Origin: Balamuthia mandrillaris
Taxonomy: Eukaryota
Length of the DNA: 64,000 nucleotides
Reading direction: 5' to 3'
Assembly: GCA_031835245.2 (NCBI GenBank)
Contig: JAVKOQ020000008.1
Span: forward strand, 372,001 to 436,000
In this document: piece by piece, positions 11,401-57,968 of the stretch
How positions within the stretch are numbered: the stretch's first letter is position 1
Layout of the letters: every line of letters begins with the position of its first letter
Notes under the pieces: model-generated
What the model saw: the letters and a program-made list of their open reading frames with translations, nothing else
Told to the model about the DNA's origin: nothing
The model's database searches: none
Translations under genes and position numbers: made by a program

Positions 11401-13110
11401 GGAGATGCAAAGGCTGGAGTTCCTCAAAAATCAGAGAATCAGAACGAAGAGGGGCATGACTTAACAGATACTCGCGCAACTAACACTACTGAACATAAAG
11501 AGAGCAACAAAACCATCCCCATCGACGAAGAGGCAATTTCCTCTTCAACGAATCTAGGTTTGCATACCGAACACACTGAACAAGCATCCAACAATGAAAC
11601 CGAAAAGCCAACTTCGAAACCAACAGCATCCCCTATGACTGAAGAGACATCTGTCGCTACCGCTGCTGTTACTTCAAGCGGCGAGCAGCTTGTTGAATTG
11701 CAACAACCCAATGCAGCCGCACAGACGTTGGAAGATGAGCTTTACGACATACATCAACTGAACCACGCCATCAGCAACGCCATCACCATGAAGAAGCACG
11801 CAGCTGCTCTCTTCTCCCTCTCTTCTATCGCTTTTGGATCATTTACCGCAACAAATGATCCAACTACTTCCTCCGCTCAGAAACAACAAGCCTCCTCATC
11901 TTCTCAAGACTCATCTACCGTCGCGACCACAACTTCCACCACAGCCTCCGCCTCGCTCGTCGATGTAGATATCTCCAAAGCAACAGCGGAGAGCGAGGGT
12001 GCTATTCACTTCCAGTTTGGCACCTTCTCTCCCCGAGAGAAGCAATCCGCTGAAGAAATCTCCGCCCCAGAGGAAATCAAGTCGGAAAACAAACAACAAG
12101 GACCCACCAAACGAGAATCTCCTTCCACCTCTTCTTCTGCTTCACCCCAAAACGAAGCTACAACTACTGCCGATGAAAAGCAGCCACACAACACTCATAA
12201 ACCGCCCCGCGGCAACAACAAGTCTCACCAACACAACCGCACCAGCCCATCCTACCAACAACGCAACAAACACAACCGCCAAACGAACAATAGCAATTCT
12301 GAATCGTTGACCAGCGACACTGCTGCGCTTCCAACTCATCACCAATCCAGCTATGCCCCACCCCTTCATCATCCCCACGCCTATACTCCCCATTACCAAC
12401 ACCCTCACCCATACGTCCACCACCAACAGGCCTATCACTATCCTCATCAACAACAAGCCTACTATGCGCCTGCCGCCTATGTGCCTGCGCCCCATGCTGC
12501 CTACTATCCTTCTCACCCTCATTATAACCCCCACCATCCTCAATACCACCCTGCCGCTGTGCCTTATGCCTCTCACCACCTTCATCACCAAGGCATGGCC
12601 CCTTCTTCTCCTCAGGAAGGAGGAGCACAACCTTATTGGACTCCTTCCTCCACGGCATATGATGGCGCTGCTACCTACGAAACTTACGATGCTGCTCCCG
12701 CTGGTGTGATGTATCACGATGGTTCCTATGAGGGTGGCGTTGCTTATGAGGGAGGAGGCTATGAAGCTTATGCTCTCGCTCCCCATCCTGGCGCCATGGC
12801 GTATGCACCTCATCCTCACCATCCTCATCAGATGTATGGTGCTTATCATCCTGCTGGTGCGTATGATTACTCTGCCTATGAACAACCGGTGTACGCGGAC
12901 GGACCTACGGGCAGTTCTGAGCAAGCGGTTGTCTATCCTCACAGTCATCATCACTATTCGCCAAGCCAGCCTGATGCCTACACTCCTCCTTCCTCTTATT
13001 CCTCCACATCTTCTGTTCCTTATTCATCCTCCGCTTCTTCTGCATCTTCCTCATCATCTTCTTCGTCCTCTTCTTCTGCGTCTTCTTCCTCTTCCACTTC
13101 TTCTTCTTAG
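8428..13110 (+). CDS. OTU-domain deubiquitinase (OTUD4/OTUD5-like) with long disordered, Y/H/P-rich C-terminus
   Basis: Cys box KDGACL/FRAVA, WGGEIELKAL and His box HNNHYDVVY. Introns near 8518-8625, 8822-8902 and 9062-9990. Confidence 0.85.
9090..9900 (+). repeat. Intronic compound pentanucleotide satellite (CTCTT)n interspersed with CATCGTT/CGTCGTT variants
   Basis: Directly visible tandem repeat inside the OTU gene intron. Confidence 0.95.
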
Positions 13111-15375: not shown

Positions 15376-16294
15376 TTACTACAGCTGCGACTGGTAGGTC
15401 TTCTTCGTTTTTTTTTTGCTGTGTTTTCTTTTGCGTTGGTTCTAAATTTTTTCCTGGCAGAGATTTTCATGTTTAATTATGCGAACGGAAATTTTTTGTT
15501 CCTGGAAATTATTTAAAAATGTTTGAGGAGCCTTCCATGTTAACTCGCGGGGCGAAACAAAAGGAGGAGAGTGAGCCGCTACGAAGTAGAGGCGTGAGCG
15601 CTTTTGCCGAGGTTCCTCTGTACTAGCCGCCATGGAAGCGTGGAGTGTTACAGTTCAACCTCGGTGACGTTCCGTTCATTGTCAGCAGGAACGTTATTTA
15701 GAATAGTTTTTACCCCATGCAAAAACAACAGACGTTCCCTCTGCTGTACACCGCTAGCTACGGTATTCCTAGGAATGCGACAGGAAACACTATTTTTTGC
15801 GGTGACGGGAACAACACGGAAGAGAGAGAGATTCACAAAAGCGCGCCTTCCTCGCGCGACATCAAAAATGCTTGCACCGGGAGTCGAACGGCTTCCGCTG
15901 ACGAAATTTCATCGATCCAACCATTGTATTTTCTTCTTTCGGCCGCTGGACTTGCCACCAGTTTTCTTCGAGATCCACAATCAAAAAACCGAAAATGCCA
16001 TCTTTAAAGTTGTAAAGCCTCTGGTTTGATTTTGAACTTCACCAGGCTTCCCTTCTCTTTCTCTTGGTTTTTTTGTTTATCTGTTTTGAAACCAAAGAAA
16101 CAAGAGAAGTGGCACCAACTTCCTTGTTAACCAAGTTCAACAACTTACCACAACCAAAAAAAAAAAAAAAAAAAGTGAAAAGAAATAGGTACCTCCTCAT
16201 CAACGCTTCTTTTCTATCCTGTTATATGTTTTCATTTTTGCTCACAACAAAAAAACTACCCACCACCGAACGAAACAAAAAAGAATTCACTGAC

Positions 16295-19209: not shown

Positions 19210-22200
19210 ATGGGCTGTCGGAAGGGGAGGTTATGGCGATGGTGGTTGGTCTGGGCCGTCTTATGCTGTCTAACGGTGCACGGCCAGTTCTTCTTTCCAA
19301 CAACCGACATCGCGGTTTGCAGAAGAGGAGAGTGCGTGACATCGTTCCTTCCCTGTCCCTCAGCAACATGCTCCGCTGACTTGAACTTTAAAAAAGCTGC
19401 GATGTGAAGATATTGGTGAAAGCTTACCTTACCAATGAAGGGCACAACTGGGAGCTAGAATACACGCTGGATGATGGTAAACCTTTCTTTCTTTCTGCTC
19501 TGCAAGCCGCTAACAACTGGCGACAAAGACGTAAGTTTCAAGGATCAGTATGACCGCACATGGAAAGCAGCAGAACCTATCCAGCTCCGTCTTCGTCGCA
19601 CCCTGTCACGAATAGGTCCTCCTTTCGTTTCTGTTTCATTCTAACTCTTTCTGTTGCTTCCGCTGAAACAGGCTTTGTCTCACTCTAACAGAATACGGAA
19701 TGACCTACGAAGGAGCCTACAAGAACGCGTACGAAGTTCGAACGGGACGGACTTCCTCCGAGCGTTGTCTCGCCGATCGCGTGTGCTGTCCCAACGACGC
19801 CTCCTTCTTCCCTCTCATCGGCTCCGAGAGCTACTTGGCTCAAAACCAAACTCTCTATCACGCCTTCTCCGTCGGAAGAGGCAGCTGGGTCTATGCCGTC
19901 GAGGTCACCGCCACGCAGGGAACCGCCTTTGAGAGCTTGCGTCTAAGCAACCTCAACCCCTCCGACTCGATGCCCAGTTTAACCGCTCAAGTCTCCAGCA
20001 GTTCGTTGGTGCTCTCCTCGTTTGCTGACTTCAGTCCCTTTCGCTTGGTTTCATCGGAGGAGGAGAGCAAGGAGAAGGCCTTCGTGGTGCCGCTGCACCG
20101 GTTCGGCACCGACGTGAACAGGATCGGCATAACCAAACAGAGTTGGATGAACCACAAGCGATGCGAGGCTTCTCCTGAAACCTCGCTTACCGCAGTCGAT
20201 GGAGGTTCCAGGTTTGCTTTTTCATCTTTTATGGGAAGCGCTTCAGCCTTCTAACCTGCTTTTGTTATGTCGTCGAAGATATGATCAGTTTTCAAAGTTT
20301 CGAGGAGACACGGTGAATACTCTGGCTGAAGGGTGTCTGCTTATACCAGAGCTCTCGTTCACTGATCCCAGCAAACCTTCGCAGCTTAAACAGGTTTTTT
20401 GCGTTCGCTTCCGCTTCCTGTTTGCAATGCTTCTCACGCTGTCTCTAAAAAGTCGTTTGACTGCGAAAACGTTGGCTCGCTAAGGGTTCTGATGGAACTC
20501 TCCACAAGCTCCTTTCGACTGAGAGCTTTGTTTGGCCGTCCTTTCATAACCGTTCGTGCTCTTCGCTCTCTTCTCGCTGTGTTATCGTCTTGTTCTTTTC
20601 TGACTTGAACAAAAAGGCATCGGGCGTGTTTCCAATCCAAGATGGCGATACCCAAGCATTGTTATGTAAGCTCAATCGTTCGTCTGTCTGGTTGTTCTTT
20701 CGTTTCTGTCTCTTCTGATGACTATGGTTTCCTTCTTCTTCGCGGATGCAGACATTGATTGCAGCAACCAGGGAGATAGCACAGGCGTTTTTGAGTTTCA
20801 GCCGGTGCGATGCTGCATAGAGCTGGCTAGTCGCTTGCAAATGGATTGTGAGGTTGACATTCTTTTTTTGTTTTCTTCTTCTTCCTCTCCTGTTTCATTC
20901 TGTGCACAGGAAAAGCTAAAAGAGTGAATGTAGAGTGTTTCATTTGCGCGTGCCCTCTCGAGAACTATCGACAAAGACGAAACCGCACGAGTGATATTCA
21001 CGATCCATAACGAGGTCCTTCTTCCATTACAGGTTTTGTCTTTTCTCGTTCACTTGTCTTCTCATTCGTATTCGTATTCGTATTTGCCTTCGTCTTCTTC
21101 TTTCATTCGTACAACAAACAGGAAGCATTCAACACGAAAGGTTTCTGCCAGTTCGACATCGTGCAGCATGGTCTCACCGAGCTCACTCATCAAGTAAACT
21201 TTAGCACTCAGGTCATCCCCATTGCTCCGCCTCCCGGCTCTATTCCTATCTCAGGTTTCTTCCTCCTTCATTCATTCCTCCTTCATCCTTCTGGCTGGTT
21301 TCCAACTGCGTTCGTATCTCCTAAAAAACCAAACAACAAAAAGATGATGAGAGTTGTGCTCCACCAAAAAGAGTGGTACAAATGGGAGGGCAAAAGTACT
21401 GTCAACCTGCATGCACACCCGACCAGAACTTTCATGAGCCAACGCAAGCATGCCTCCCAGTGGATTGCGTCCTGAAATACCTCGGCACTCGCAACTGGTA
21501 TGACGCCAACCAAGGTCGTTGCGTTCCTGCTGCCATTTGTGAGGATGATCAAGTATGTCGTGTTCTAGCTTTCCCCACGAAGCATGTGTTAACTTTCTGG
21601 GAAAAAGGTGTTTGATGAGTTGAGCAATGAATGTGACAAGAACTTACCGCCCGACTTTGAAAGTGGAAGCACCTCTTCAGCACATAGTAATGATGATAAC
21701 GGTGGCATCAGTCCTGTTCCTCCAACAAAGGTTTCTATTAATGTTCTTCTTCTCACTCTTCTTCCTTTCTTCTTTCTCTTCTTCTAGTTCTAGTTCTTGT
21801 TCTTCAGCTTTCCCGCATTGCTCTCTTCGGTAGTTGATTTTCGTATTATTGCTTTTGTTTGTTTGTAGGTGGTAGATTGTGGTCCAAATGGCCGTTTGAT
21901 GGCCAATAACCTGAGTTGTGAGTGCAATAAAGGGTGGAGCAACGAACCGAATCAAGACATCTTTACGTACGTGTGGTGCACGCGCCATGGCAAAGACCTC
22001 GCTGGTTTCCAAGACCCATCGGAAGATCCTCAGCCGAACACCACGGTTTCCTTCTTTCCTTGCCTCCTTTCTCACATCATCCCTCTTCCTTTGACTTCAT
22101 GCTTACATCTTTCTTGCCTTCTCTTCTCATTGCTCTCCCTCTTCCTCTTGCTTTTACAGATAATCGGAGTGTTCATCGGAGTTGTGGTAGGTTGCTGTTT

Positions 22201-22711
22201 GCTCTGCGGAGTTGGGTGCGGTCTGTTGTGGAAACGAAAGCAGTTAAGAGCAAGAAAGAAAAAGAGGAAAGCATTAGCAGCAATAGAACAGAGGGAACAA
22301 GACCTTCTCTCCAGAGTGGCAGCCATGTTGCCTGCTGGATGGAACGTTGTTGATATTAGAGCGTCCGATATCACTTTAAAGAAAGATGCAGGCAAAGGAG
22401 ATGATAGCACCATTAAAAAGCAGAAAGAAGACGATGAATTGGAAAGTGGAGAAAGAGAAAAGAGTGTGGAGGAAGCATGCGTCGTTGATTCGACGATAGA
22501 GAACAAGGAGGAGAAGAAAAAGAAAGAAAAGGGGAAAGAGAGAATAATGATAAATACGCCTTCTCCGGGAGTAACATCTTTACCACTCACTCGAGGAAGA
22601 AGAGCACCAAGTAATGGTTTGTTGAGACTTGTTGTTGGCTATGAAGAAGAAGAAGAAGAAGAAGAAAATGAGGAGAAAGCTGAAGATGGAAATGGTGGGA
22701 AAGATTCGTGA
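19210..22711 (+). CDS. HAP2/GCS1 (fusexin)-like type I membrane protein with extra Cys-rich/EGF-like stalk (gene A), about 13 exons
   Basis: Manual splicing gives a signal peptide, then CRRGDCDVKILV, PIQLRLRRTLSRIEYGMTY, VCCP, LYHAFSVG, FVVPLHRFGTDVNRIGITKQSW..RC, LMELSTSSF, CSNQGDSTGVF, FCQFDIVQ..VNFST, Cys-rich repeats, a Cys-rich TM and a polybasic tail. These are colinear with remembered HAP2 sequence. Confidence 0.75.
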
Positions 22712-22828
22712 GTTGATTCAGAAAACAATTGTACATAGAACAAAAAAAAGTTAAACACAAAAACTCGTCAATTAAAAAAATAAATAAAAGAATGAGGGAG
22801 AGAGAGGATTGCTTTTCTGCTGTTGTTT

Positions 22829-25800
22829 CTACATGTTCATGAACCGAAGAGAGCGATTCTCTCTTTGCCGATGTTTTGTGTTGGAGAAAGGCATTGTCCC
22901 ACCTCCACACAAACACCGCTGAAGGCAGTAGAGAAAACCTGTCGCTAAAGAAAGAATCGTCACCCATTTGATCACTCTTCTTTGCGTACTTGTTCTCTTT
23001 GCATCCAAACGCCTGGGGTTGTGAAAAACAAAAAGAAAAAGCACAATTATAAAAATTAGTAGCAAAGAAAAGTAAAACAAGAGAGCAGCAGCAGAAGAAG
23101 AACAAGAAGAAGAAGAGCAAGAGCAAGAGCAAGAGCAAGAGCAAGAGCAAGAGCAAGAGCAAGAGCAAGAGCAAGAGCAAGGCAGAGCAAGGCAAGAGCA
23201 AGAGCAAGGCAAGAGCAAGGCAAGAGCAAGGCAAGGCAAGAGCAAGAGCAAGAGCAAGAGCAAGAGCAAGAGCAAGAGCAAGAGCAAGAAGAAAAGCGTA
23301 CATGGCTTGGTATTCATCCCAGTAAAGAACAGCATTCGCCTGTCCTTCTGGCAGTTCAAAAGCGGAAGGATGTGGGAAGAGCGAATTGTACAAGTCACGA
23401 ATGTAACGCAGCACTCTCCTGCTTGAAGGCTTTGTGTGATCAATGTCATCATTGACGCAAACAAACTTTCTGGGATGTTCCCGAATGCCGTCCAACATGC
23501 GTTGAGCGCTGGTGGCGTTGCCTGAGAGCATGACAAAGGCGACGTCGTCCGTGCCCTGAACCTCGTACTTGTTCTTGGAGCGAGAGACTTGGTGGTTGTA
23601 GAGCTGGTTCATTACCTCTTCGCAAGAGAGCAGTTCTTCTTTGTTGATGCGAATGGGATCTATTTCTTCTTCGATATATTCTTCTTCCTCTTGTTTCTCT
23701 GTTTGCTTATCCTCGTTTTCGTTTTGTTGTTGTTCTTGTTGCTCCTGATTTGGCAATTCCACGGCCTGAGCAACGCCTTCATTTTGTGTATTCGCTTCTT
23801 CTCGTTCTCGTTCTTGTTGTCCTTCTTGTTGCTCTTGTTCGTGTTCTTCCTCTTCTCGGGTTAATTCGGGAGGATGGATTTGGTCTTCCTTGTCTTCTTG
23901 TTGTTGCTGTTGTTCTTCTTGTTGTGCTTGTTCTTGAGGAAGGGCGCAAAGATTGAGGGGATCCTTCAACTTTGCCTTAAAGTCATTCCACGTGCTTTCG
24001 CTCAACGGGGAGCCATAAAGTCGCGTGGCCAGAGTGCGGAGCTCGTTATAGTCCAAATCACCAGAGCCATCGCCATCGAACCTCTGCCAAACGTCTTCAA
24101 ACTCAAAGCCTGCTTTCTCGTGTATGAGAAAGTAGAAGTAGGAGAAGGCATATTGCATGTCTTTTGGACTGCGAAAACGATGAGAGGAAGTCTCTGCGAA
24201 ATGTTCTGGCCAACGGGCTTGCAGTCTCTCCATCACTTGGATGTCTATCATATGAGGCATGTGTGCGATAACATTTCTGGCTGAGGGACCAAACTCTTGG
24301 TCGAGCAAAGAGTTGACGAAGCGAAGAGAATCTCCAAATGTGTCCAACAGTTGTCGTCGTTGCTTGTTATTATTGTTGTTTGCGTTTTGTTCTTCTGGTT
24401 GTTGTTTTTCTTCTTCTTTACCCCATTCAGAACGTTCCCAAGGAAAAAGAGAAGGCGGAGGTTGATTCTTCAGCTTCTTCTCTAATTCTGCCCAGTAGCT
24501 TTGTGATTGATGAGGAGATTCTGGAGGAAACGAAGAAATCAAATCGGATTCACGAGAAAGAGGCACCGGCTCTTTGGCCAATAGCCGACGCAAGTTTCTT
24601 GCGCGTTCCAAAGCTGCTTTTAAGGCTTGCTCTTCTTCGCTGAGTTTTCTGTCGACTATGTGTTCTTCTACTACGTTCTGTGTTGCTCTTTCTTCATTAT
24701 TCACTGTTTGTTGTTGCTCCGCATCGTTATCGTCCATCTCTTGTTCTTCGTGTTGTTCTTCTGTCGGTGTTGTTGCTTCCGCGGCATCTGTCGTGTGGTC
24801 TTGTTGTATTGTTGATGGAGGTAATAAGCCAGCTCGCAACACGATGTTGTATTCTGTTTCCACGTCGTTTTCAGACGTTTTAATAGAGATGGCTACATCC
24901 TGTCGTGTTACATTGCTAAAAAAAAGTCAGTAATACAAAATAGGGAAGAGTCTTTTCTTTTTTGAGAAAGAGAGAACGGAGGAGAGTGCGTGAGAGCGAG
25001 AGATGAGCTAACCGATGAAACGTGAGAGTCATGAGTTTATGCTTTTGTGAGATGGTGGCAGAACGAATCAAATCAGAATCCTCATGAGAGCCATCCACGA
25101 TGCGTGCCTCATGTACAAGTCCACTGAGTCCAACGTATGCTGCCAAGACATCACCAGGTATTTCTACGACAGCTCCGCTCTATATTTTTAAAACCAGAAA
25201 TGATGCATTCGTAAGAAAAAATATAGGAGGAACGAAAGAAATAGAATATAACCTCTGTGACGTTGGCACCATATACGTTGGAAATAACGGTTTCGACGCC
25301 ACAATCTCCTGCATCCATACCACAGTCTTTGTTCTTGCAAGGCTCATCGCAGTACTTATCTCCTATCCAACTTTTTTTGTCGTAGGTTTTGTTACTAAGC
25401 TAGAGAGTAGAGTAGAGTAGAAAGAAAATCTTTGAGAACAAACCTGTCAGGACATCCCCAGCTACAGTACTGGTTGGCCTCTGAATTCTTTGACCCTGTC
25501 ATATGTTATAAATGAGAGAGCAGAGAGCAGAGAGAGGATTAACTTACAGGGAAAAGACCATCCACCGCCCACACCTTGATTAGGAGCAACTCCAACACAA
25601 TCTCCTCCATCCCAACTGCAGGCACTGACATTGCAAGCCACATCACAATATCCATCTTTAATCCAACCAGCAGGACATCCAGGAGCACAGTCAGGAACAG
25701 GCCATGCCAAAAAGACCTTTTGTCCTTTGCCCTGTGTGTAAAAGTCGTCCGGCCATATGGGAGAAGAAAAGAGTGTGTCATCGTTGAGATAGAGAAACTT

Positions 25801-26103
25801 ATTGGAGAGACCGGGAATACGATGAAGGTGTGCCTCTATTGCGGGAGAGGAGAAGGTAGGGAGGTGGCTCTTGTTGAGGAAGATCATGTCGTGGGTGATG
25901 AGGCGGATGCGAGGATGGGAGAGGTCCAGCCAGTAGGGAATCTGGCCGTTGGTTACCACGTAGATGTTGCGCACCCACGGTGCATTGAATTCCAAGGAAC
26001 GAAGGGAGTAACGCAAGTCTTCGTTGTCTGTGTTGCGTTCGGTTTTTTTTTTTTTTGTGTGTGTGTGTGTGTTATTGTCTCTTAGATTTTTTTCTGTTTT
26101 CTC

Positions 26104-26178
<75 letters not shown>

Positions 26179-26940
26179 CGACAAAACAAACCTATGAAAC
26201 GGCTGAGAGAGTCGCTGTCACGATAACAATTTTGGGAGGCAGCATCAGCTGTGGAAGAGGCAGGTGAAGTTGTTGCAGCATCGTTGTTGTTGTCGTTGTG
26301 GTTGTTGCGTTTGTCGGCACTAGTCTCTGCGTTCTCTTCATCCTTTGGAGTGCACAAGTCTTACCGAGCAAGAGTAAGTATAAAAAGAGACTAACAGAAG
26401 AGAGAGAGAGAGAGAGAGAGAGAGATGAGAGAGAGAGCTTACAGCTATTATCGCCTAGCATGCTCTTCGTCCGCGCGATCGCTGGTTCACCGCAGAAACA
26501 GAAGAAGAAAAGAAAAAAAGCAACATTTCAAACAGAGCAATGAGACGCAAGCAACAAAAGAAGAAGGAGAAGAAGAAGATGATGGAACACAAGCAAAAAG
26601 GAGCAAGAGAAGCGGGATCAAGTAAGGAGAACGCGAACGAAGAAGAAAAAGCATACGAACCTTCAAGCAGACGCGGGTCGCTGCCATTCACCCACGTGTA
26701 CACCACATCGATCTCCGGAGCGCAGAGATTGTCCTCAAAGGAGCGACCCACGATGTTGTTCCCCCAATCCCGGAAGAAGAGCGAGGAGGGGGAGGAGTAG
26801 GCAGCGTTGTCCAGCAGGTGGTCCACGATGGAGAAGGTGGTGTTGAGGAGGAAGAGCATGCCCACCACGCAAGCGGCCATGCCCCACCGCGTGGACAGGA
26901 ACGTCAGGAACTTGCGCTGCACCAGCTTGCGCAGCGTCAT
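22829..26940 (-). CDS. GNPTAB: GlcNAc-1-phosphotransferase alpha/beta precursor (Stealth family, GNPTAB-like), multi-exon
   Basis: N-terminal [15 protein letters not shown] (Stealth CR1), [32 protein letters not shown] (CR2), LNR repeats, [15 protein letters not shown] (CR3), an EF-hand, [10 protein letters not shown] (CR4) and a C-terminal TM. Confidence 0.92.
23100..23290 (+). repeat. (GAGCAA)n / (GGCAA)n intronic microsatellite
   Basis: Tandem repeat visible in the last GNPTAB intron. Confidence 0.9.
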
Positions 26941-27442
26941 TTCTCTCGCCCCTCTAGAGTTCTCTCTTCCCTCGCCTCCGCAAAGAGAGAATCTTTCTTT
27001 CACGATTTCTTCTTTCTTTTTGTGTCGAAAATGTGCGAAGCACCCCTCGTGAATAACCACGTCGTCATGGTTTTATTTAATGTCGATGTTCCATGTCGTC
27101 ATGTTAATCGGGTGTTTCGTGTCGACGTCAATACTGCATCGTGTCGTCATTTGTATACGCATTCCGATCTCTGTAAAGATTTCGGGAATGATGGGACCAA
27201 TCGGCACACGCCACATCATCTGTAAATATTAAAAACCCCTCGACTCATTGTCGACAAATAACAATTTACCGTTTCGCTTTTCTTTTTCGTCGCTCTGCCC
27301 TCTAATTTTTTTTTCCTCTTCTCTTCGACACCAACAACAACCTAAACACACAGACACACACCCGTTGGGCGGCCTGTTTTCACCGTTGGGCGACGATCAC
27401 ACACACCACACACACACTAAATAATTTTTTTTTTAAAAAAAC

Positions 27443-28993
27443 ATGGCCTCGTACCAAGGACACGCGACCAGCTCTGCCAAGGTGCAGCAGGTGAAGAAGG
27501 GAGAGATCACTCACTCCTACAGCGAGGAGGAGAAGGAGGCCTTCACCGAGTACATCAACATGGCCCTCGGCAAGGACGCTGACCTGCGCCGCATCCTGCC
27601 CCTGAACGCCCAGGACGAGTCCCTCTTTGCCGGCGTGCACGACGGCCTGCTCCTCTGCAAGCTCATCAACGACGCCATCCCCGACACCATTGACGAGCGC
27701 GTCCTCAACAAGGGCGACATCAACACCTACAAGAAGCACGAGAACCAGACCGTGGCCATCAACTCTGCCAAGGCTATTGGCTGCAACGTCGTCAACATTG
27801 GCGCTCAGGACTTGATCGACGGCATCCCCCACTTGGTGCTGGGCCTCATTTGGCAGATTGTCAAGATTGGGCTCTTCTCCAGGATCAACTTGGTCAACCA
27901 CCCCGAGCTCTACCGCCTCCTCGAGGAGGGCGAGACCATTGAGGACCTCTTGAAGCTCCCCATTGAGGAGATCCTGCTCCGCTGGGTGAACTACCACCTC
28001 AAGAACGCCGGCTGGCCCAAGAGGGTGAACAACTTTAGCGGCGACATCAAGGACGGCACCGCCTACACCGTCCTCCTCGCCCAGATCGCCCCCAAGCACT
28101 GCAACAGGGACCCCCTGAACGCCTCCAGCGACCTCAAGCGCGCCGAGCTGGTGTTGGACAATGCCGACAAGCTTGGCTGCAGGAAGTTTGTGGCCCCCAG
28201 GGACATTGTGCGCGGCAACAAGAAGCTCAACTTGGCCTTTGTGGCCAACCTCTTCAACACCTGGCCCGCCCTGGAGCCCGTGGAGGACGTGGAGATCATC
28301 GAGGAGACCCGCGAGGAGAAGCAGTTCCGTAACTGGATGAACAGCTTGGGTGTGGAGCCCTTCGTGAACAACCTCTACCTCGACCTCCGAGACGGCTTGG
28401 TCCTCATCCAGCTCTTCAAGCAGGTGGAGCCCGGCATTGTGGACGACAGCAAGGTCAACTGGAACCCCACCACCACCTGGAAGAAGCTCGAGAACGACAA
28501 CTACGCCGTGGAGTTGGGCAAGCAGCTCAAGTTCTCCCTGGTCGGCATTCAAGGCAAGGACATCTTGGACGGCAACAAGACCCTCACCCTGGCTGTCGTC
28601 TGGCAGCTCATGAGGCACCACGTACTCTCCATCCTCAAGCGCCTCGGCGGCGGCCAGGCCATTGGAGACAGTGACATTATCCGCTGGGCCAACGATAAGG
28701 TCAGGTCCGCCGGCAAGTCCTCCTCCATGGCCTCCTTCAAGGATAACTCGCTCCGAGACAGCAAGTTTTTGATCGACTTGGTGGATGCCGTTCGCCCTGG
28801 TGCTGCCGACTACTCCCTGGTCTCTGACTCTAGGGACGACAAGGACCTGTTGTTGAACGCCAAGTACGCTGTGAGCTTGGCCAGAAAGATTGGCTGCTGC
28901 GTGTTTGCCCTGCCCGAGGACATTGTGGAGGTGAAGAACAAGATGATCATGACCTTTGTGGCCACCGTCATGGCTGTTGACTTGGGTCACTAA
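27443..28993 (+). CDS. Fimbrin/plastin actin-bundling protein (four CH domains), intronless
   Basis: HSYSEEEKEAF, DGLLLCKLIN..PDTIDER, AKAIGCNVVNIGAQDL, LNLAFVANLFN, ETREEKQFRNWMNSLG and LPEDIVEV. Strong C/G third-position codon bias. Confidence 0.97.
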   Translation: MASYQGHATSSAKVQQVKKGEITHSYSEEEKEAFTEYINMALGKDADLRRILPLNAQDESLFAGVHDGLLLCKLINDAIPDTIDERVLNKGDINTYKKHENQTVAINSAKAIGCNVVNIGAQDLIDGIPHLVLGLIWQIVKIGLFSRINLVNHPELYRLLEEGETIEDLLKLPIEEILLRWVNYHLKNAGWPKRVNNFSGDIKDGTAYTVLLAQIAPKHCNRDPLNASSDLKRAELVLDNADKLGCRKFVAPRDIVRGNKKLNLAFVANLFNTWPALEPVEDVEIIEETREEKQFRNWMNSLGVEPFVNNLYLDLRDGLVLIQLFKQVEPGIVDDSKVNWNPTTTWKKLENDNYAVELGKQLKFSLVGIQGKDILDGNKTLTLAVVWQLMRHHVLSILKRLGGGQAIGDSDIIRWANDKVRSAGKSSSMASFKDNSLRDSKFLIDLVDAVRPGAADYSLVSDSRDDKDLLLNAKYAVSLARKIGCCVFALPEDIVEVKNKMIMTFVATVMAVDLGH

Positions 28994-29239: not shown

Positions 29240-31445
29240 TCAGAGGAACACAATCTCGTCGTCTTCGTCGTCGGAAAAGAACTTTTCAGCGTGGTAGACT
29301 TTGGTCCTTTCTTTCTTCAGGTAATGAGGTGTCTCGTCTGCGATTTCGTACATCGTCATCAGCTCTTTGTTCATCTGGCAGAAACAGCAGAGAAGGATGT
29401 TAACAACCACAAAAGAAGACTGGCGAGAAGAAGAAGAGGAGGAGAGAAGAGCGAGAAAGAAGAATGAACCTGTCTGCTGCGTTGGCAAAAGTCATCAAAG
29501 GACTCTTGCGTAGGACAGAAGAAGGCAAGCGCAAGAGAAGGATCGATGTCGCGGATAGCAAGTCGATGAGGAATGGCGCAGTGGTAGCTTGCGAGGAACT
29601 CTACCAATTGTTCTTCTTTTGCATCCTCTCCCGCGTTTTCTTTCTTTTCCTTTCCCTTTTCACACTGAGCAGCAGCGGGCGAAGAAGGAGAAGAGGAGGT
29701 AGGAAAGAGGAGAGGATCAGTGGGTTGAATGGTGTGGGGATCAAAGTAAAACAAGTCATTATCTGTTGAATAGAAGAATAGATCAGTATTGGGGAAGTAA
29801 GAAGACGAGAAAAAGAAAGAAGAAGACAGAGAAATAAGTGATAAGAAAGAAGGCGAACCTTGATAGCCCACAAAATAGAGAGAAGAACGAGGTTTGCCTC
29901 CAACGATGCCTAGGCTTTGAGGAAAATGGAATGTATGTTTCAAAGCAGGTATGTATACCTGGTTAAGGCTGTCCAGACCCAATCGTAACGGAATGATGAG
30001 CAAAAGAGGCCGCCATTGCTTCTCCTCTTGCTCCTCTTGTTCTTCTTCCTTGTTGCCTTCATTGCAAGTGCTTTGGAGGCATCGTTCCATGATTTGATCT
30101 TTGTACAGGCAACCGTCTGTCGAAACGTAAACAGCTAAATTGGTGGGGTTATTTTCTTGGACAACTTCTCTGTTGGTGTTTAAAAAAATAGCGTTTGTTA
30201 ACACAAGGGAGAAGAAAGGAAAAGGAGTGAGCACAGAAGAAGAGAAAATAGAAGTACTCTAAAACTTGAGCGATGGTGGATGGGCCAAACCACTCGCCAA
30301 CGTTCTTCCCAAACTTAAGTCCATTTTGTGCGATATTATGAATAGAAAATGGGCAGAGAGGATGGTCTCCAAACAATCGCAATATCTTATGAACATATGT
30401 TAACGTTTATGCAAAACAAATGTCGAAAGAAAGAAAGAAACAAGCAGTAAAAGGTCTACCTGTGCATAGTGCTGTGGTGGTGGTTCCAATGGATCCAATC
30501 GCCACTCTTAGAATAAAATGTTCATTTAGACGAAGAAGAAAGATGAAGAAGAACAAGAAGAAGAGGAAGAAATGGAAAAGAACTAGCAGCAAATAGAAAA
30601 TACATGGAAAGCAGGAATCAGACCTCTTCCAAGAAGTTGAGAGCTAAGTGCTTGCCCAAGAAGCATCTGCCCGCTACGAAGAGTGCATCCCCAACCAACA
30701 TCTGAAGTAAAGGGAGAGGGCTCGATGCGGTGAAAGTCTTTGCGGTAAGTAAACCACAGCCTAGAGAAAAAGTCTTTCAGAAAGGCAGGAAAGGGAACGG
30801 TTGGCCGTATTCCCTCTTCCTTGTCTTTCTCTCCCTCTTTTTGTTCGTTGCCGCCTCTACGAGGACGCGGCGGTGTTATGACTTGGTCATCGTCCTTCTT
30901 GTAGCATCGACCGAGCATCCATACAGGAGAGTCGGAGAAAGCAGGAAGTTGTTTGTATCCTTTGTGGAACAAGAAGAGGAAGAAATAAGAGAGGAGGAGA
31001 AGGAGGATAAGAAGGACGAGAGAAAGAAGCGAAGAGCCTGGTAAACGAAAATGAGAAGAGAAGAGAAGAGAAGAGAACGATGAAGAGAAGAGAACGATGA
31101 AGAGAAGAGAAGAGAAGAGAAGAGAAGAGAAGAGAAGAGAAGAGAAGAGAAGAGAAGAGAAGAGAAGAGAAGAGAAGAGAAGAGAAGAGAAGAGAAGAGA
31201 AGAGAAGAGAAGAGAAGAGAAGAGAAGAGAAGAGAACGATGAAGAGAAGAGAAGAGAAGAGAACGATGAAGAGAAGAGAATGATGAAGAGAACGATGAAG
31301 AGAACGATGAAGAGAACGACGAAGAGAAGAGAAGAACGGTGAAGAGAAGACGAGAGAGCAAGAGAGAGAGAGAGAGAGAGAAGAGAGAAGACGAATCACA
31401 GAACAACGTACCTGACTCGTGGAGAAGGTTATAGTAAAAGTCCAT
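29240..31445 (-). CDS. ATG4: ATG4 cysteine protease (peptidase C54), multi-exon
   Basis: [81 protein letters not shown] and an acidic C-terminus. Start assigned to MDFYYN, the only in-frame ATG. Confidence 0.9.
31050..31390 (+). repeat. Intronic compound satellite (AAGAG)n with AACGATG variants, the reverse complement of the 9.1-9.9 kb repeat
   Basis: Directly visible. Lies in the first ATG4 intron. Confidence 0.95.
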
Positions 31446-32198: not shown

Positions 32199-32353
32199 AT
32201 GATGAAGGGCGCGCTTGCAAGTACCACGTGGCGGTTACTGCTGGTGGTAGTACTAGCTTGCCATGATAGGTTGAAAGTGATGGGAGGACTTGACTCCGTT
32301 CGATGGACTCCACCAGATTGCTCTGAAGGGTTACGGTCCTTCCCTTGCTCGCT

Positions 32354-32395
<42 letters not shown>

Positions 32396-33610
32396 CTCTC
32401 TCTCTTCACTTGCAGCGCTTCTGTTCTTGTAACAAGACCTTAATGATAAAGAGTTGGGAATTGTCGATCGGATCTTCAAGTCAGCATTCATTTGGATAAA
32501 ACGGAGCTCTCCTACCAACGAACATGGGAATACTTTGTTACTTCTTCGTCAGATCCGAGACCCATCTTTCTCCAGAAGCCTTTTACTCTGAAAACGGAGG
32601 TTTCCACTACTGCAGCAGGTATCTAGCCCCTCAACAACAACAACATCACAAACAAAAAAAAAAAAAAATGCATCAAAAAGCATTGGTTCTTATAGTGGAA
32701 CTTACATATTTTGTTTATATTGTTTCGTTCATTTAAGTGCTTCAGTTGATGCACACAGAAATTATCTACAACACTTTTGAAGACTTTGTACCAGATCCAT
32801 TCTGTCCCTATATGCCCAAGGTTCCATTCTATATATTCTTTTATTATTTCAATCTCAGAAGCAAAAAAAAAAAAAAACTCGCTTACTTCCTTCTTTCACA
32901 CTAATAGAGAGGTCGTTGTACAGAAACCACACGAGAAGCTCAACGAAAACTTGTTCTCTGCTGTCAAGGATACGCCAGAAGAGGAGTTGGTCAACATTGC
33001 TTGAAGAGCAACCTATCCGAAGCGTATGATGTTTATGCGGTGCAACAGGTGAGGTTGCCTCTTCGTGTGACTGTCTCTGTCGGAGAATCCGATGAGGACA
33101 TGAAAGAGCTTCTTGTCATGACAGATACGAACCGAGAATATCGAACAAGCAAAGCAGACGTAAGTATCTTTTGTATAAGCATGAGAGAATATAAAGTGAA
33201 GAAACGAAGGACAAAGGAAATCAGAGGCCAACTGACGCTTGCTATAATGGTATGTAGGGATTGCTTCAAATGTACTCGGACGATGATGACGCTTATGGAT
33301 TGTTAAAACTGCCTCCGTTGGTCGTCCTAATGGTGCGCTCTCACCCATCGTCCGCCACAAAATCAGACTGGAGGTACATTCCTTTATTTTTCTACCGTGG
33401 TTGTGTTTCATATGGTTCTTGTTATTTGTCCTGCAGTTGTTAAAGCTCTCCTTATTATTATTAGGAATTGGTTTTATGTGTACAAAGCTAGCATTCCCAA
33501 GCAATTAGGGATGACAGAAGAGCAGTGGCGTTTGGTTGCTTCCTGTGATTCCACTCGCAACGCGCATACTCAGACCAACCCCGTTCGGCCAGAGTAACTC
33601 TCTCTGCTCT

Positions 33611-33646
<36 letters not shown>

Positions 33647-33948
33647 TCTCTCTCCCTCCTCCCTCGTGAGTGCAACCTTCTTTTGGTTAATGCTTTGCCG
33701 TGGCACAAGAGATCAGTTTCTATTGCTGCGAGAAAACAGGTTGGATAAACTTCTCTCTCTGTCAATGAGAGATATGGCTCTTTATGATCACCCGTCCCAG
33801 CGGTTGTAGCCACCCCCTTCCGTTTGCTTCGTCTTTCATTCTCATACCAAACTGCAGGTTGGACATGGCCATCCCGCGAAGTCCTGAGCCTCTTCAACTG
33901 GACCTGATCATCCGCCACATTCCTGTACACTTCAACGCCTCCCGCTGA
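32199..33948 (+). CDS. Secreted HAP2/GCS1 (fusexin)-like protein, domains I-II only (gene B), 8 exons, 353 aa
   Basis: Exons 32199-32329, 32452-32618, 32738-32820, 32908-33159, 33258-33373, 33465-33593, 33710-33802 and 33858-33948 join in frame (1062 nt). Product includes a signal peptide, CSEGVGNCRSDLQV, KPFTLKTEVSTTAAVLQL, FC..RC..LCCQG..QHCLK..YDVYAV..LRVTVSVG, NWFYVY..KQLGMTEEQW..SC and DQF. Confidence 0.7.
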
Positions 33949-34133: not shown

Positions 34134-35723
34134 ATGATGCATAACATGTTTTCGTATGCTGCTGCTGCTGCCGCTGCTGTGACTGACAAGGACCAAAGCC
34201 CTCTGCCCTTGGCCTGCGAGTCCGAATGGCGCGTGGAGCTCGGCCTGGAGGACTCCCCTCCGCTGCCCTCTCCTCCGCATACCACTGCTTTCATCACTCC
34301 GCTTCCTTTGAGGAAGAAAAAGCTGGTCCAGTCCTACTCCTCCGCTTCGTCTTCTTCCTTGCGAAACAGGGATGAGGATGACTCTTTCGGTTTGTTGAAT
34401 GATAGTGGCTCGTATGAAAAGAACGACGACGACGCCTTTGCCACTCCACCTTATCCCTCGCCAACTATTACCACCGCTTTTCTCCGTCGCGAAGACCTTC
34501 AACTCTTTTCTTCTTCTTCTTCTTCTTCTTCTTCTATCACTCCTTATCATTCTTCTTCCTTTACTTCCGCTAACAACACAAACAACAGTAACTTCAGCCT
34601 GGCTCTTCTTGCATCGGCCTCAACAACTTCGGCAACTGCCATGGACACTCCTCCATTGCCTTCACCTCCCAAGACAACCCCTTTTCTGTTGGACAGAAGA
34701 GCAGAAAGGCTAAGAGAAGGAGAAGGGAAGAGAGGACTCGTGCTTCGCTATGATGACGATGACGACTCTCCCTTTCGTCCCAATAACAACAACAATCCCA
34801 ACATCCATAACGGTTGCCAAAGGGACGATAAAGAGAAAGACGCATTGGCCACACCCCCGCTGCCTTCACCTCCTCACACCACCATCTTCCTTCGAGCAGC
34901 AAAAACCTCCGACTCGTCATCTTCTTCCTTTGCTGCTTCTCCATTTCAGCAACAACAACAACCAAAGTTTCACGAGCAAAACAATAACCAAACAACAACT
35001 GCAAACGAATGGTTGTCACCATTCGTTGCTGCTGCTTCTTCTTCAGCTTTGTTGCCGCCGATGACACCGACGACAACGACGACGTCGACGCCTCCATTGC
35101 CGTCTCCTCCCAACACAACTCCCTTTCTTCGTCCTGTCTCTTTCTTACCTTTCCTTCTCTCTTCTGCTTCTTCCTCCACCAAGACGAAGAAGAAACGTCC
35201 CGCCAAAGCAGACGAAGAAAATGACAACCATGAGGAAGGAGACGAGGACCAAGACGAAGAAGGAGAAGGAGAAGATGACGACCCATTTACAAATGCGTTC
35301 AAAGCGTTGCGGTTGGATGAAGCTATGGCGGCAGGAGAAGAAGATGAGACAACAATGATGAACATGATGAGCCCTTGTCGTCTGCTCGGTTTGGACGACA
35401 TTCCTTCCCCAGAACCTCCTGAACTCACCACCACGCAACTGCTTCGTCCCCCCACTGCTTCTTTCTCGTCTGCTTTCAACAACAGCAACCACAGCACCGA
35501 AGAGAAGAAAGAACAAGCAAAAGCTGACAAAGAGAACGTCGCTCCGTTCTACGCTAGACAACATGCTGCTTTGTCTTCTTCGTCGATAACAACACCAACC
35601 CCACAAAAAGCTGCATCGTCGTATCCTTGTTCCTCTTCTTTGCTGTCGCCTTACTCTTCTCCTCTTCCTTCATCCTCTGCACCTCCTTTGTCCCACCATC
35701 AATCAGCAACAAAGAAACTCTGA
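34134..35723 (+). CDS. Intronless disordered protein with five (S/T)PPxPSP-x-x-TT-x-F repeats and a KEN box
   Basis: 529-aa ORF with recurring motif and DKENVAP. No recognised folded domain. Confidence 0.7.
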   Translation: MMHNMFSYAAAAAAAVTDKDQSPLPLACESEWRVELGLEDSPPLPSPPHTTAFITPLPLRKKKLVQSYSSASSSSLRNRDEDDSFGLLNDSGSYEKNDDDAFATPPYPSPTITTAFLRREDLQLFSSSSSSSSSITPYHSSSFTSANNTNNSNFSLALLASASTTSATAMDTPPLPSPPKTTPFLLDRRAERLREGEGKRGLVLRYDDDDDSPFRPNNNNNPNIHNGCQRDDKEKDALATPPLPSPPHTTIFLRAAKTSDSSSSSFAASPFQQQQQPKFHEQNNNQTTTANEWLSPFVAAASSSALLPPMTPTTTTTSTPPLPSPPNTTPFLRPVSFLPFLLSSASSSTKTKKKRPAKADEENDNHEEGDEDQDEEGEGEDDDPFTNAFKALRLDEAMAAGEEDETTMMNMMSPCRLLGLDDIPSPEPPELTTTQLLRPPTASFSSAFNNSNHSTEEKKEQAKADKENVAPFYARQHAALSSSSITTPTPQKAASSYPCSSSLLSPYSSPLPSSSAPPLSHHQSATKKL

Positions 35724-35751: not shown

Positions 35752-36777
35752 CTACGCATCAAAGACAGCCAACCACTCTGCCTTGTTGGCAACAAACTTG
35801 CTGGACCTGTCCTCTTCGATCTTCTCTCTTGGAGTTTCGCCTTGGTTGTCCTTGCAACTGAGGTCGGCCCCCAGCTCCTTCAACACCTTTAACGCCTCCA
35901 AATGTTCGAATTGAAGAGCGATGTGAGCCGCAGTATCTCCACCGTAGACCCGGTCCTCGTTGGAGGTCCGCAAGTTCAGGTCCGCGCCCACCGCCTTCAG
36001 AGCCCTCAGAACGTGCAAGTGGTTGTTCATCACCGCCATGTGAACGGGCGCGTAGCCGCCTGTCCCCGTGATGTGAGCGTTCGGGTCGAATCCTGCCTCC
36101 TCTACCAAGAGACGGATGAGCTTCTCGGAGGCACCCCTGCTCGCGGCAAAGTGCAGCGCTGACTGTCCTTGGAGGTCGGTGCGCTTCACGTCCAGCGTGC
36201 CATCGCCCTTGGGACCGCGTTCTGAGATCAGCTTGGTGGCTTCCTCCTCATCGACTTCGTCCAGGAGGTTCATCCCGCAAGCAATGAGCAACGAGTCGGC
36301 CCGTTCTCTCTCCTCCATCTGGGCGGTAAGCAGCGCCAGCGCGTCTTCCGCTTGCTGCTTCTTCTGGGCCGAGTCATCCGTTCGGCGGAGCTCCAGGATG
36401 AGCTCTCCTGAGATCTTGGGATGCTTGCCGGAGAGCGAGAACGCGGACTCGGTCCTGTCGGTCGGGATGTCTCCCACGCGAACCTTCACGCAGCCGAGCT
36501 CGTCGTCCTTCCCGATGAGGTCTTTGTCAAACACCTCAAAGATGAGGATGTCGTCCTCATGGAGGTCTTTGGAGTCGTGCCAGCCGTCAGGCAGCGCAGC
36601 TCCTTTCGCCCAACGGGGAGAAAGGGTCTTTTTGATGGTTGGAGTTTTGCGCAGCTTGAGCGGTTTGCCTTGTTTCTGTTGGAGGAAGACCACCACGTAG
36701 GGATCGCTTTTGCCGTTGGTGTCGGCAGCGCGAAGGTTGTTGGCCCCCACGACACGCACGTCCACTGTAATCGTCAT
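35752..36777 (-). CDS. C2 domain + ankyrin repeat protein, intronless
   Basis: VVGANNLRAADTNGKSDPYV..KTLSPRW..EVFDKDLIGKDDELG. Ankyrin motifs GQSALHFAA, GYAPVHMAV and GDTAAHIA. Confidence 0.9.
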   Translation of the reverse strand: MTITVDVRVVGANNLRAADTNGKSDPYVVVFLQQKQGKPLKLRKTPTIKKTLSPRWAKGAALPDGWHDSKDLHEDDILIFEVFDKDLIGKDDELGCVKVRVGDIPTDRTESAFSLSGKHPKISGELILELRRTDDSAQKKQQAEDALALLTAQMEERERADSLLIACGMNLLDEVDEEEATKLISERGPKGDGTLDVKRTDLQGQSALHFAASRGASEKLIRLLVEEAGFDPNAHITGTGGYAPVHMAVMNNHLHVLRALKAVGADLNLRTSNEDRVYGGDTAAHIALQFEHLEALKVLKELGADLSCKDNQGETPREKIEEDRSSKFVANKAEWLAVFDA

Positions 36778-37319
36778 CTTCGTGGTCCTGTTTGGTGTTG
36801 CTTTGGGTGTTTCAACAAATGAAGAGTGCTCTCTTGTAGGATAAGCTATAAATGTAACGCAATAGATCAGGCAACCGAATTACAGCCAATCGAGAAGCGA
36901 GGAGGGTAACACACGCTGCAACATGTGTCTCGCCTAAACCCTGGAGTGTCCGCAGGGTATGACCAGGACACTCCTCAACACTCAACCGTTGCAAGGGGGG
37001 CAGTTTGTTTTGGCCTGAAAGCGAAGCAAACGTGAAGGTTCTCTGTGATGATCTCTTCACTTATTTCCGCAACGTTGGAACCATCGATGAGGCATAAGAA
37101 ACGCTGAATAAAGAAGACAGATGTGGACGATGAAAATTATGTTATGTATGCTGTATTATGAAGGTGTTGTGTGTCTTTTTTTTTTTTTACATCCGTTCTC
37201 TCTCTCTCTCTCTCCTTTGTGAAGTTAGTAGTTTCTCGTAGACGCTCTGCATCAAGCTGCTTTTCTTCTCCCGTTAAGTTCTTATTGTTCTTCATTTCTG
37301 TAAGGAAAGAAGGAATGAG

Positions 37320-54119: not shown

Positions 54120-54158
<39 letters not shown>

Positions 54159-57916: not shown

Positions 57917-57968
<52 letters not shown>

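What the first reader, a model, noticed from the sequence alone, without database searches (positions are those of the whole stretch)
32199..33948. Gene B: soluble 'headpiece-only' fusexin (domains I-II) hidden in 8 small exons
Seen: all seven predicted introns are GT-AG and the exons total 1062 nt (353 aa plus stop) with no internal stop. The protein has an N-terminal signal-like segment and no later hydrophobic anchor. It ends (LQLDLIIRHIPVHFNASR*) at the point equivalent to the HAP2 domain I-III linker (LMIELRADDIEYVFQRS), i.e. a clean domain-boundary truncation rather than random decay. The next gene begins about 190 bp later, leaving no room for domain III or TM exons. Established: fusexins need domain III fold-back and a TM anchor to fuse membranes. 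Inference: this cannot be a stand-alone fusogen, so it may be a secreted regulator, decoy, lipid-binding protein or membrane-attacking factor.
Basis: partly seen in the sequence, partly recalled or inferred. Interest (0 to 1): 0.85.

Follow-up and report, generated by a model that had tools for sequence, protein, structure and literature searches.

The report
Ancient anchorless cousin of gamete fusogen
This amoeba gene encodes a relative of the sperm-egg fusion protein HAP2, with short relatives in distantly related protists, that lacks HAP2's third domain, membrane anchor and long membrane-inserting loops, so it likely cannot fuse cells and is likely a secreted partner that controls a membrane-bound fusion protein.

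Summary
The gene is real. The 8-exon, 353-aa model equals a public annotation, and a profile of relatives, built without this species, prefers it to 83 of 84 alternative splicings. It is fusexin-derived: family-versus-HAP2 profile match 97%; a model folded without HAP2 sequences (pLDDT 80) hits HAP2 first and ends at the last domain-I strand. An unfiltered search found 22 relatives, none longer than 392 aa, including Acanthamoeba, Willaertia, Entosiphon and Anaeramoeba; 16 of 21 aligned relatives end at the same strand. The family keeps candidate salt-bridge Glu/Arg and tip cysteines but shortens the fusion-loop segment to about 11 residues (HAP2: 28-43), which argues against a membrane-attacking role. 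A divergent membrane-anchored fusexin lies 9.5 kb upstream. Best reading (inferred, about 0.4): a secreted accessory subunit or regulator of such a fusexin. Expression here, secretion, binding and function are untested. Ten literature searches listed no description.

The parts
32199..32329 (+). Exon 1: start codon, signal-peptide-like segment (about aa 1-28), first domain-I cysteine C41
   Evidence: helix 9-25 in the model
32452..32618 (+). Exon 2 (aa 44-99): domain I strands
   Evidence: leave-out family profile 15.0 bits
32738..32820 (+). Exon 3 (aa 100-127): long strand into domain II, with N111, E114 and C122
   Evidence: 16.4 bits
32779..32781 (+). E114 codon, candidate equivalent of Chlamydomonas HAP2 E126 (inferred from alignment)
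   Evidence: Glu in 19 of 20 rows with a residue; aligned to the HAP2 Glu
32908..33159 (+). Exon 4 (aa 128-211): domain II tip (C131, C145, C146, R152, C158) and following strands
   Evidence: best of 1778 window ORFs against a HAP2 profile, E 0.004; 65.0 bits with the leave-out family profile
32965..32997 (+). 11-residue loop between the CC pair and the HC cysteine, where HAP2 carries its two fusion loops; holds R152 (32980-32982), candidate equivalent of R185
   Evidence: 11 aa with 2 bulky hydrophobic residues vs 28-43 aa with 6-11 in 13 HAP2; Arg in 19 of 21 rows
33258..33373 (+). Exon 5 (aa 212-249)
33465..33593 (+). Exon 6 (aa 250-292): region matching the HAP2 ij-loop segment, with W271 and C277
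   Evidence: C277 in 19 of 19 rows; 29.1 bits; aligned
33710..33802 (+). Exon 7 (aa 293-323), starting with the family DQF motif; may end at 33805
   Evidence: Q295 in 18 of 18 rows; donor alternatives
33858..33948 (+). Exon 8: last domain-I strand (336-348 in the model), N350 sequon and stop codon
34042..34081 (+). Cluster of six AATAAA motifs before the next gene
19210..22711 (+). Gene A: divergent membrane-anchored fusexin-like gene (domain I-II match, then a Cys-rich region, an EGF-like module, a transmembrane segment and a tail); candidate partner, not shown to interact
   Evidence: P0003; Pfam HAP2-GCS1 E 0.02, below cut-off; family profile 96.4%, E 1.4e-9; leave-out profile E 1.9e-9

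Best explanation
This gene encodes a 353-residue protein predicted to fold as the domain I-II rod of HAP2, with no domain III, no membrane anchor and no long fusion loops, and it likely acts as a secreted, non-fusogenic partner that binds a membrane-anchored fusexin and controls when that protein fires. Shown: gene model, membership of a family of short proteins found in several protist lineages, homology to HAP2 domains I-II, loss of the fusion-loop segment, absence of a later hydrophobic segment, and a membrane-anchored fusexin-like gene 9.5 kb away. Established: class II fusogens assemble through a domain I-II core onto which domain III folds back, and viral ones fold with an accompanying protein. 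Inferred: the protein enters the secretory pathway; it pairs with gene A or a canonical HAP2 through its domain I-II surfaces, either holding the pre-fusion monomer or entering the core as a subunit that supplies no fusion loop and no hairpin; this happens during sexual or other cell fusion.
For: Fold and homology. Family: 22 hits of 137-392 aa in a search with no length filter; 16 of 21 aligned relatives end 4-14 residues past the same column of the last strand; ten near-full-length members share only 16-28% identity yet C131, C145, C146 (21 of 21), C158 (23 of 23), C277 (19 of 19), E114 (19 of 20) and R152 (19 of 21) are kept, so the rod and its tip are under long-term selection. Secretory signs: hydrophobic N-terminus in full-length members, none above 1.5 later; two N-glycosylation sequons kept in both copies despite substitutions inside them. 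Tip scaffold kept while the membrane-inserting loops are lost points to a protein-binding role. Precedent: domain I-II constructs form core trimers that bind domain III (PMC3086016 passages; HAP2 lacking D3, PMC9279424 passages); two HAP2-related proteins are both required and do not complement each other in Dictyostelium (PMC4910948 passages). Gene A scores higher on the family profile (48.9 bits) than any of 13 canonical HAP2 (up to 35.8).
Against: Nothing ties the protein to fusion or sex except ancestry. Linkage with gene A is seen in one species only; the second contig with the same tag spacing is a duplicate of the same block, not independent, and three unrelated genes lie between. The conserved Gln of the HAP2 ij-loop network and two of three ij-region cysteines are not kept, so the tip has been remodelled. 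Structural matches have large rmsd (5.3-6.4 A by VIA, 7.5-9.9 A by Foldseek). The bc loop keeps 2-3 hydrophobic residues in most members, and that loop is a putative third fusion loop in one HAP2, so lipid binding is not excluded. In the quick tree gene A lies outside the family on a long branch.
Confidence: 0.4

Rival explanations
1. It is a secreted recognition factor or ligand: the fusexin rod has been reused to bind a receptor on another cell, for example in mating-type or self/non-self recognition, without touching a fusogen.
For: Secreted-type anatomy. The two copies differ at 13% of residues against about 4% for gene A in the same duplicated block, unevenly: 0 of 78 changes in aa 30-107, 31 of 165 in aa 189-353. 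Dictyostelium mating-locus genes matD and matT are reported as weakly HAP2-like (PMC4910948 passage).
Against: The substitutions are conservative (mean BLOSUM62 0.48 vs -0.46 expected for unselected changes, P about 1e-4). Whether the two contigs are alleles or paralogous blocks is unknown, and divergence of the neighbouring genes was not measured.
Confidence: 0.18
2. It has left fusion altogether and serves another extracellular or secretory-pathway role, such as a surface-coat, cyst-wall or luminal scaffold protein.
For: All three fusion-specific parts (fusion loops, domain III, anchor) are gone; the family forms its own group apart from HAP2 (SH-aLRT 98, quick tree) and is old enough to have changed role.
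Against: The candidate Glu-Arg pair that organises the HAP2 tip is kept, and a second fusexin-like gene is close by.
Confidence: 0.18
3. It is a soluble membrane-binding or membrane-bending protein that inserts through its bc loop.
For: Viral domain I-II trimers insert into and tubulate liposomes (PMC3086016 passage). Trypanosome HAP2 uses three short loops (PMC6089408 passages). The bc loop has 2-3 bulky hydrophobic residues in most family members.
Against: The cd segment is 10-12 residues in 18 of 21 rows and has 2 bulky hydrophobic residues here, against 28-43 and 6-11 in 13 HAP2; aromatic residues in that segment are needed for liposome binding by Chlamydomonas HAP2 (PMC5332557 passages). 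The bc loop of this protein holds only Tyr and Met beside two basic residues.
Confidence: 0.12
4. It is one half of a split fusogen: a separate gene supplies a membrane-anchored domain III that clamps this domain I-II core in trans.
For: The end falls exactly at the domain boundary and domain I-II cores bind free domain III in vitro.
Against: Without long fusion loops the core could not grip the target membrane in the known way. No domain III match was seen in 1778 window ORFs, a weak negative because gene A's own third domain was also missed.
Confidence: 0.1
5. It is a decayed duplicate or a mis-predicted gene whose real product continues into domain III and an anchor.
For: No RNA confirms the junctions or the 3' end; introns 1, 6 and 7 have exon-like GC (0.48-0.52).
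Against: Independent relatives end at the same strand, two of them from Trinity-named transcript assemblies; the leave-out profile picks these junctions; both copies are open with conservative changes.
Confidence: 0.02

Closest known systems
HAP2/GCS1 gamete fusogen (Pfam PF10699; PDB 5MF1, 5OW3, 6DBS, 7S0K)
   Same: Colinear domain I-II homology (97.2%, E 3.3e-11); top structural matches (Z 12.8-13.5); CC and HC cysteines, candidate Glu-Arg pair, signal-like N-terminus.
   Different: No domain III, stem, transmembrane segment or tail; fusion-loop segment 11 instead of 28-43 residues; the two cysteines flanking loop 1 and two of three ij-region cysteines are absent; 14-19% identity; no Pfam hit.
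Dictyostelium HgrB, MatD and MatT (divergent HAP2-related proteins of Amoebozoa)
   Same: Divergent HAP2 relatives in amoebae that act with, or beside, a canonical HAP2 (PMC4910948 passages).
   Different: HgrB is described with a C-terminal transmembrane region and as limited to dictyostelids; this family has no anchor and has members outside Amoebozoa. Their sequences were not compared here.
Engineered domain I-II fragments of class II fusogens (Semliki Forest virus E1 DI/II, dengue E, Cyanidioschyzon HAP2 lacking D3)
   Same: Same domain content; those fragments trimerise and the viral ones bind domain III in trans.
   Different: They are laboratory constructs that keep their fusion loops; this is a natural gene family without the long loops.
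Accompanying proteins of class II fusogens (alphavirus E2, bunyavirus Gn, Chlamydomonas MAR1)
   Same: Proposed role: fold with, hold or time a fusogen (PMC8706100 passages).
   Different: Those are membrane-anchored and do not have the fusogen's own domain I-II fold; here the role is only inferred.
EFF-1/AFF-1 and archaeal Fsx1
   Same: Same superfamily fold (Z 9.1 and 8.2).
   Different: More distant than HAP2; both are anchored fusogens with domain III.

Membership tests
Fusexin (class II fusion protein) fold | Elongated beta-rich domain I with domain II formed by two insertions | tested here: met
   Model from 23 family sequences without HAP2 rows, pLDDT 80.1, pTM 0.66; Foldseek ranks 1-8 are HAP2 chains, E 3.1e-11 to 2.5e-9; VIA Z 13.5, rmsd 5.5, 276 aligned to 5MF1. 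A predicted model, not a solved structure.
Fusexin (class II fusion protein) fold | Ig-like domain III | tested here: not met
   Chain ends at the last domain-I strand; no relative extends more than 14 residues past that column.
HAP2/GCS1 fusogen | Sequence homology to the HAP2 ectodomain | tested here: met
   hhalign 97.2%, E 3.3e-11, 256 columns; global profile score Z 5.6-6.9 vs 300 shuffles, 0 of 300 block permutations, 81 real decoys all lower.
HAP2/GCS1 fusogen | Pfam PF10699 above the gathering score | tested here: not met
   No hit for P0001 or P0002; 3 of 22 relatives hit below cut-off, E 4e-4 to 0.011.
HAP2/GCS1 fusogen | Invariant Glu-Arg salt bridge at the domain II tip (E126-R185 in Chlamydomonas) | tested here: inconclusive
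   E114 and R152 sit at matching places and are conserved, but the contact could not be measured because model coordinates are not returned.
HAP2/GCS1 fusogen | Hydrophobic fusion loops between strands c and d | tested here: not met
   11 residues, 2 bulky hydrophobic, vs 28-43 and 6-11 in 13 HAP2; 39 residues in Chlamydomonas (PMC6170185 passage).
HAP2/GCS1 fusogen | Full set of domain II disulfides and the ij-loop Gln | tested here: not met
   Eight mature cysteines; cysteines flanking loop 1 and two ij-region cysteines are missing in alignments. Which ij cysteine C277 matches differs between the two alignments.
HAP2/GCS1 fusogen | C-terminal transmembrane anchor | tested here: not met
   Maximum 19-residue hydropathy after residue 60 is 0.87 here and at most 1.5 in all 27 family proteins examined.
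HAP2/GCS1 fusogen | Trimer formation | tested here: inconclusive
   The one complex job gave no verdict.
HAP2/GCS1 fusogen | Gamete expression and membrane-fusion activity | not testable with these tools
   Needs stage-specific RNA and fusion assays.
Secreted protein | Cleaved signal peptide | tested here: inconclusive
   Hydropathy and a short hydrophobic core after basic residues fit a cleaved peptide; no signal-peptide predictor was available, and an uncleaved N-terminal anchor is not excluded for members with longer cores (one is auto-named 'Transmembrane protein').

The most novel reading that the evidence does not exclude
Early eukaryotes carried, beside HAP2, a second fusexin gene whose product is a soluble domain I-II rod without fusion loops; it is the built-from-the-same-fold partner of a membrane fusexin (a two-component gamete fusion machine or its off-switch), and together with divergent anchored fusexins such as gene A it escapes Pfam and may explain cell fusion in protists reported to lack HAP2.
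Probability: 0.3. Interest if true: 0.92.

Novelty: new variant of a known kind. Interest (0 to 1): 0.78.

Why it matters
The cellular fusexins described in the papers I consulted are anchored three-domain fusogens; domain I-II fragments appear there only as laboratory constructs. A natural family of such fragments, with members named from Amoebozoa, Discoba and Metamonada (placement recalled), implies an early duplication of the gamete fusogen and a conserved job other than fusing. It gives a concrete candidate for the open question of what partners hold or trigger HAP2 (PMC8706100 passage). Because neither this gene nor gene A passes the Pfam cut-off, surveys that report HAP2 as undetected in fusing amoebae (bioRxiv 10.64898/2026.07.05.736552 passage) could be missing divergent fusexins; the family profile makes that directly testable.

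Tried and rejected
Single-sequence and two-sequence searches failed: Pfam, NCBIfam, PHROGs, PDB sequences (also 101 with the 23-row profile), the word-indexed protein search (only the two copies among 22 and 7995 candidates) and the ESM Atlas (best 0.80, Notch-ligand and C2 clusters, below its 0.9 bar; no usable feature hit for gene A). AlphaFold2 on two sequences gave pLDDT 30 and was discarded. Direct comparison with gene A was marginal (hhalign 1.7%; Z -0.3 to 2.8) until family profiles existed. My first hand-made exon model (338 aa) was wrong at three junctions. An alignment placing R140 at the HAP2 Arg was rejected: R140 is Arg in 2 of 19 rows, R152 in 19 of 21. Expression: no RNA holder was listed; three raw RNA runs (3-5% of each read) and one contig set gave no read on exons 2-6, but no control stretch showed the organism in those runs, so this is no test. 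The homotrimer job gave no verdict, score 0.00, alignment not used, fold uncertain; it is evidence neither way. No HAP2 relatives were confirmed in viral or prokaryote contigs (15 and 40 pattern matches); the family itself could not be scanned there. dN/dS could not be computed because the second copy's DNA and the genome are not held. No earlier findings of this scan were returned. The tree is the quick version, without bootstrap, with seven long branches, and both groups were collected by similarity to their seeds, so their separation is partly by construction.

Full report
Observation. The eight exons listed under parts sum to 1062 nt and translate exactly to a public 353-aa protein, P0001, which the source names a hypothetical protein of Balamuthia mandrillaris. 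GT-AG ends with an open frame prove nothing here, since about 4.5 million such 7-intron chains of this length exist between the same start and stop (introns of 60-200 nt). The real support is comparative. A profile built from 21 relatives, leaving out both copies from this species, scores the model at 201.2 bits, above 83 of 84 in-frame single-intron alternatives; the exception shifts the intron-7 donor by three bases to 33806 and adds the Leu seen in the second copy. Retaining any intron closes the frame. Six AATAAA motifs and the next gene's ATGs follow within 200 bp of the stop. No RNA evidence was obtained.

A second copy. P0002 is also 353 aa, 87% identical and ends at the same column. 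Its 46 substitutions are conservative (mean BLOSUM62 0.48 against -0.46 for unselected single-base changes, P about 1e-4), all nine cysteines are kept, and both N-glycosylation sequons survive substitutions inside them. Locus tags show that this copy and a copy of gene A lie the same distance apart on another contig, so it is a duplicated block or second haplotype rather than an independent paralogue.

Is it a fusexin? Standard libraries gave nothing. I therefore fetched real HAP2 genes from metagenomes with a recalled short motif (119 loci; frames); 15 of 15 long ORFs submitted passed Pfam PF10699. A profile of 14 of them scored the two copies at 12.3 and 13.2 bits, reached by 0 of 1000 shuffles each and by 0 of 194 real decoy ORFs. 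In a blind scan of 1778 window ORFs the two best hits were exon 4 of this gene (E 0.004) and the main exon of gene A (E 0.047). A global domain I-II profile of 13 HAP2 gave Z 5.6 and 6.9 against 300 shuffles, and 0 of 300 permutations of 25-residue blocks reached the score, so the order of the motifs matters.

The family. An HMMER search of 1.84 billion representatives with no length filter returned the query and 22 relatives (E 1.7e-13 to 5.6e-5), of 137-392 aa. From recall these four belong to Discoba, Metamonada, Discoba and Amoebozoa. Two hits have Trinity-style names, so relatives are transcribed. I aligned 21 of the 22 with the two copies, leaving out P0006, whose second half looks mis-called. 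Of these 21, 16 reach the last strand and stop 4-14 residues past the column of L341; three stop earlier and two appear to reach it only through a slid tail. Seven (P0008, P0009, P0011, P0015, P0016, P0025, P0026) start with Met, have a hydrophobic N-terminus and reach that end. None of 27 proteins examined has a 19-residue window above 1.5 after residue 60. Ten near-full-length members share 16-28% identity. The truncation is therefore a family trait, old and kept.

Structure. The family profile matches the HAP2 profile at 97.2% (E 3.3e-11, 256 columns, query residues 43-303). AlphaFold2 on the family alignment, with no HAP2 row, gave pLDDT 80.1 and pTM 0.66. Foldseek ranks 1-8 are HAP2 chains (E 3.1e-11 to 2.5e-9, TM by query 0.46-0.53, rmsd 7.5-9.9), followed by viral class II proteins (bunyavirus-type glycoproteins lead the viral library). 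Against 48,161 representatives VIA-align gave Z 13.5 (rmsd 5.5, 276 aligned) for Chlamydomonas, 13.4 for Cyanidioschyzon and 12.8 for Arabidopsis HAP2, then 9.2 for the trypanosome fragment, 9.1 for EFF-1 and 8.2 for Fsx1. A quick tree separates the family (SH-aLRT 98) from HAP2 (99), puts this gene beside the Acanthamoeba protein (84) and gene A between the groups on a long branch; see the caveats under Tried and rejected.

What the tip keeps and loses. In HAP2 a Glu-Arg salt bridge and disulfides organise the domain II tip, and hydrophobic loops between strands c and d insert into the target membrane (passages of PMC5332557, PMC6089408 and PMC6170185). The family keeps E114 (19 of 20 rows with a residue), R152 (19 of 21), C131, C145, C146 (21 of 21), C158 (23 of 23) and C277 (19 of 19). 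But from the CC pair to the HC cysteine there are 11 residues here and 10-12 in 18 of 21 rows (range 7-21), against 28-43 in 13 HAP2; bulky hydrophobic residues number 2 here against 6-11. The two cysteines that flank HAP2 loop 1 are gone with it, as are two of three ij-region cysteines and the ij-loop Gln. Against this reading, the bc loop keeps 2-3 hydrophobic residues in most rows, and that loop is a putative third fusion loop in Cyanidioschyzon HAP2 (PMC9279424 passage).

The neighbour. Gene A (about 19210-22711; P0003) has a domain I-II match, further extracellular regions, a transmembrane segment and a basic tail. It hits PF10699 only at E 0.02 but matches the family profile at 96.4% and at E 1.9e-9 with the leave-out profile. 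Its cd segment has a hydrophobic patch (Phe-Phe-Pro-Leu-Ile) but neither the Arg nor the HC cysteine, so its own activity is unproven. Three unrelated genes lie between the two.

Mechanism. A protein with no domain III, anchor or long fusion loops cannot drive the hairpin reaction (established). Domain I-II fragments of viral fusogens and of HAP2 still form core trimers, and the viral ones bind domain III in trans (passages); viral fusogens fold with an accompanying protein and a counterpart for HAP2 is an open question (passages); Dictyostelium needs two non-redundant HAP2-related proteins (passages). I infer a secreted partner that binds an anchored fusexin and sets its timing (0.4). Rivals are a recognition ligand (0.18), a role unrelated to fusion (0.18), a membrane-binding protein (0.12), a split fusogen (0.1) and an artefact (0.02).

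Literature. Ten searches of the held library listed no paper whose title or shown abstract start describes a soluble domain I-II-only HAP2 family; five accession numbers of family members gave 0 papers. I read only keyword passages of 13 papers, no full text and no supplements; supplementary sequence sets of the HAP2 surveys could hold members unremarked, and most subscription journals are not covered.

Verdict. It is not a member of the HAP2 fusogen family by its defining features but an undescribed, widely spread, anchorless and loop-less subfamily. Function remains inferred. Interest 0.78; new variant of a known kind.

Noticed in passing
window 19210-22711 (+): Gene A: divergent anchored fusexin-like gene. 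The public model (P0003) starts at 19171 in another frame and has no signal peptide; an ATG at 19210 gives a typical signal peptide running into the annotated sequence. After the fusexin part it has Cys-rich repeats and an EGF-like module (Pfam E 0.049) before the transmembrane segment.
   Followed up: partly
window 32199-33948 versus P0002: The two copies are identical over aa 30-107 (0 of 78 differences) but differ at 31 of 165 in aa 189-353; gene A's copies are 96% identical. Gene conversion, haplotype mosaic or selection could explain it.
   Followed up: partly
window 33803-33806: Two GT donors three bases apart; the second gives 354 aa and matches the other copy.
   Followed up: yes
window 34134-35723 (+): Open frame of about 530 aa, low complexity, with repeated Pro-Leu-Pro-Ser-Pro-Pro motifs and no Pfam hit.
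   Followed up: no
window 22590-27072 (-), 27437-28993 (+), 29374-31395 (-), 35752-36780 (-): Neighbours: Stealth-family protein with LNR and EF-hand, four-CH-domain fimbrin/plastin-like protein, peptidase C54 (ATG4-like) with a long GAAGA-type repeat near 31060-31400, and a C2-ankyrin protein.
   Followed up: partly
window 16016-18994 (+) and 8995-13110 (+): Long ORFs just upstream of gene A: 992 aa with a weak YtxH match (charged repeats) and 1371 aa with a weak OTU match.
   Followed up: no
window 49378-50330 (+), 50550-55140 (+), 55813-58357 (+): By eye, from recalled motifs and untested: a secreted CAP/SCP-like protein, a C2-domain protein with a C-terminal PARP-like domain, and methylenetetrahydrofolate reductase.
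   Followed up: no
L012:629-3337 and 47 other loci: 48 of 124 fetched loci hold HAP2 sequence by a local profile, many intronless and near full length, from environmental metagenomes.
   Followed up: partly
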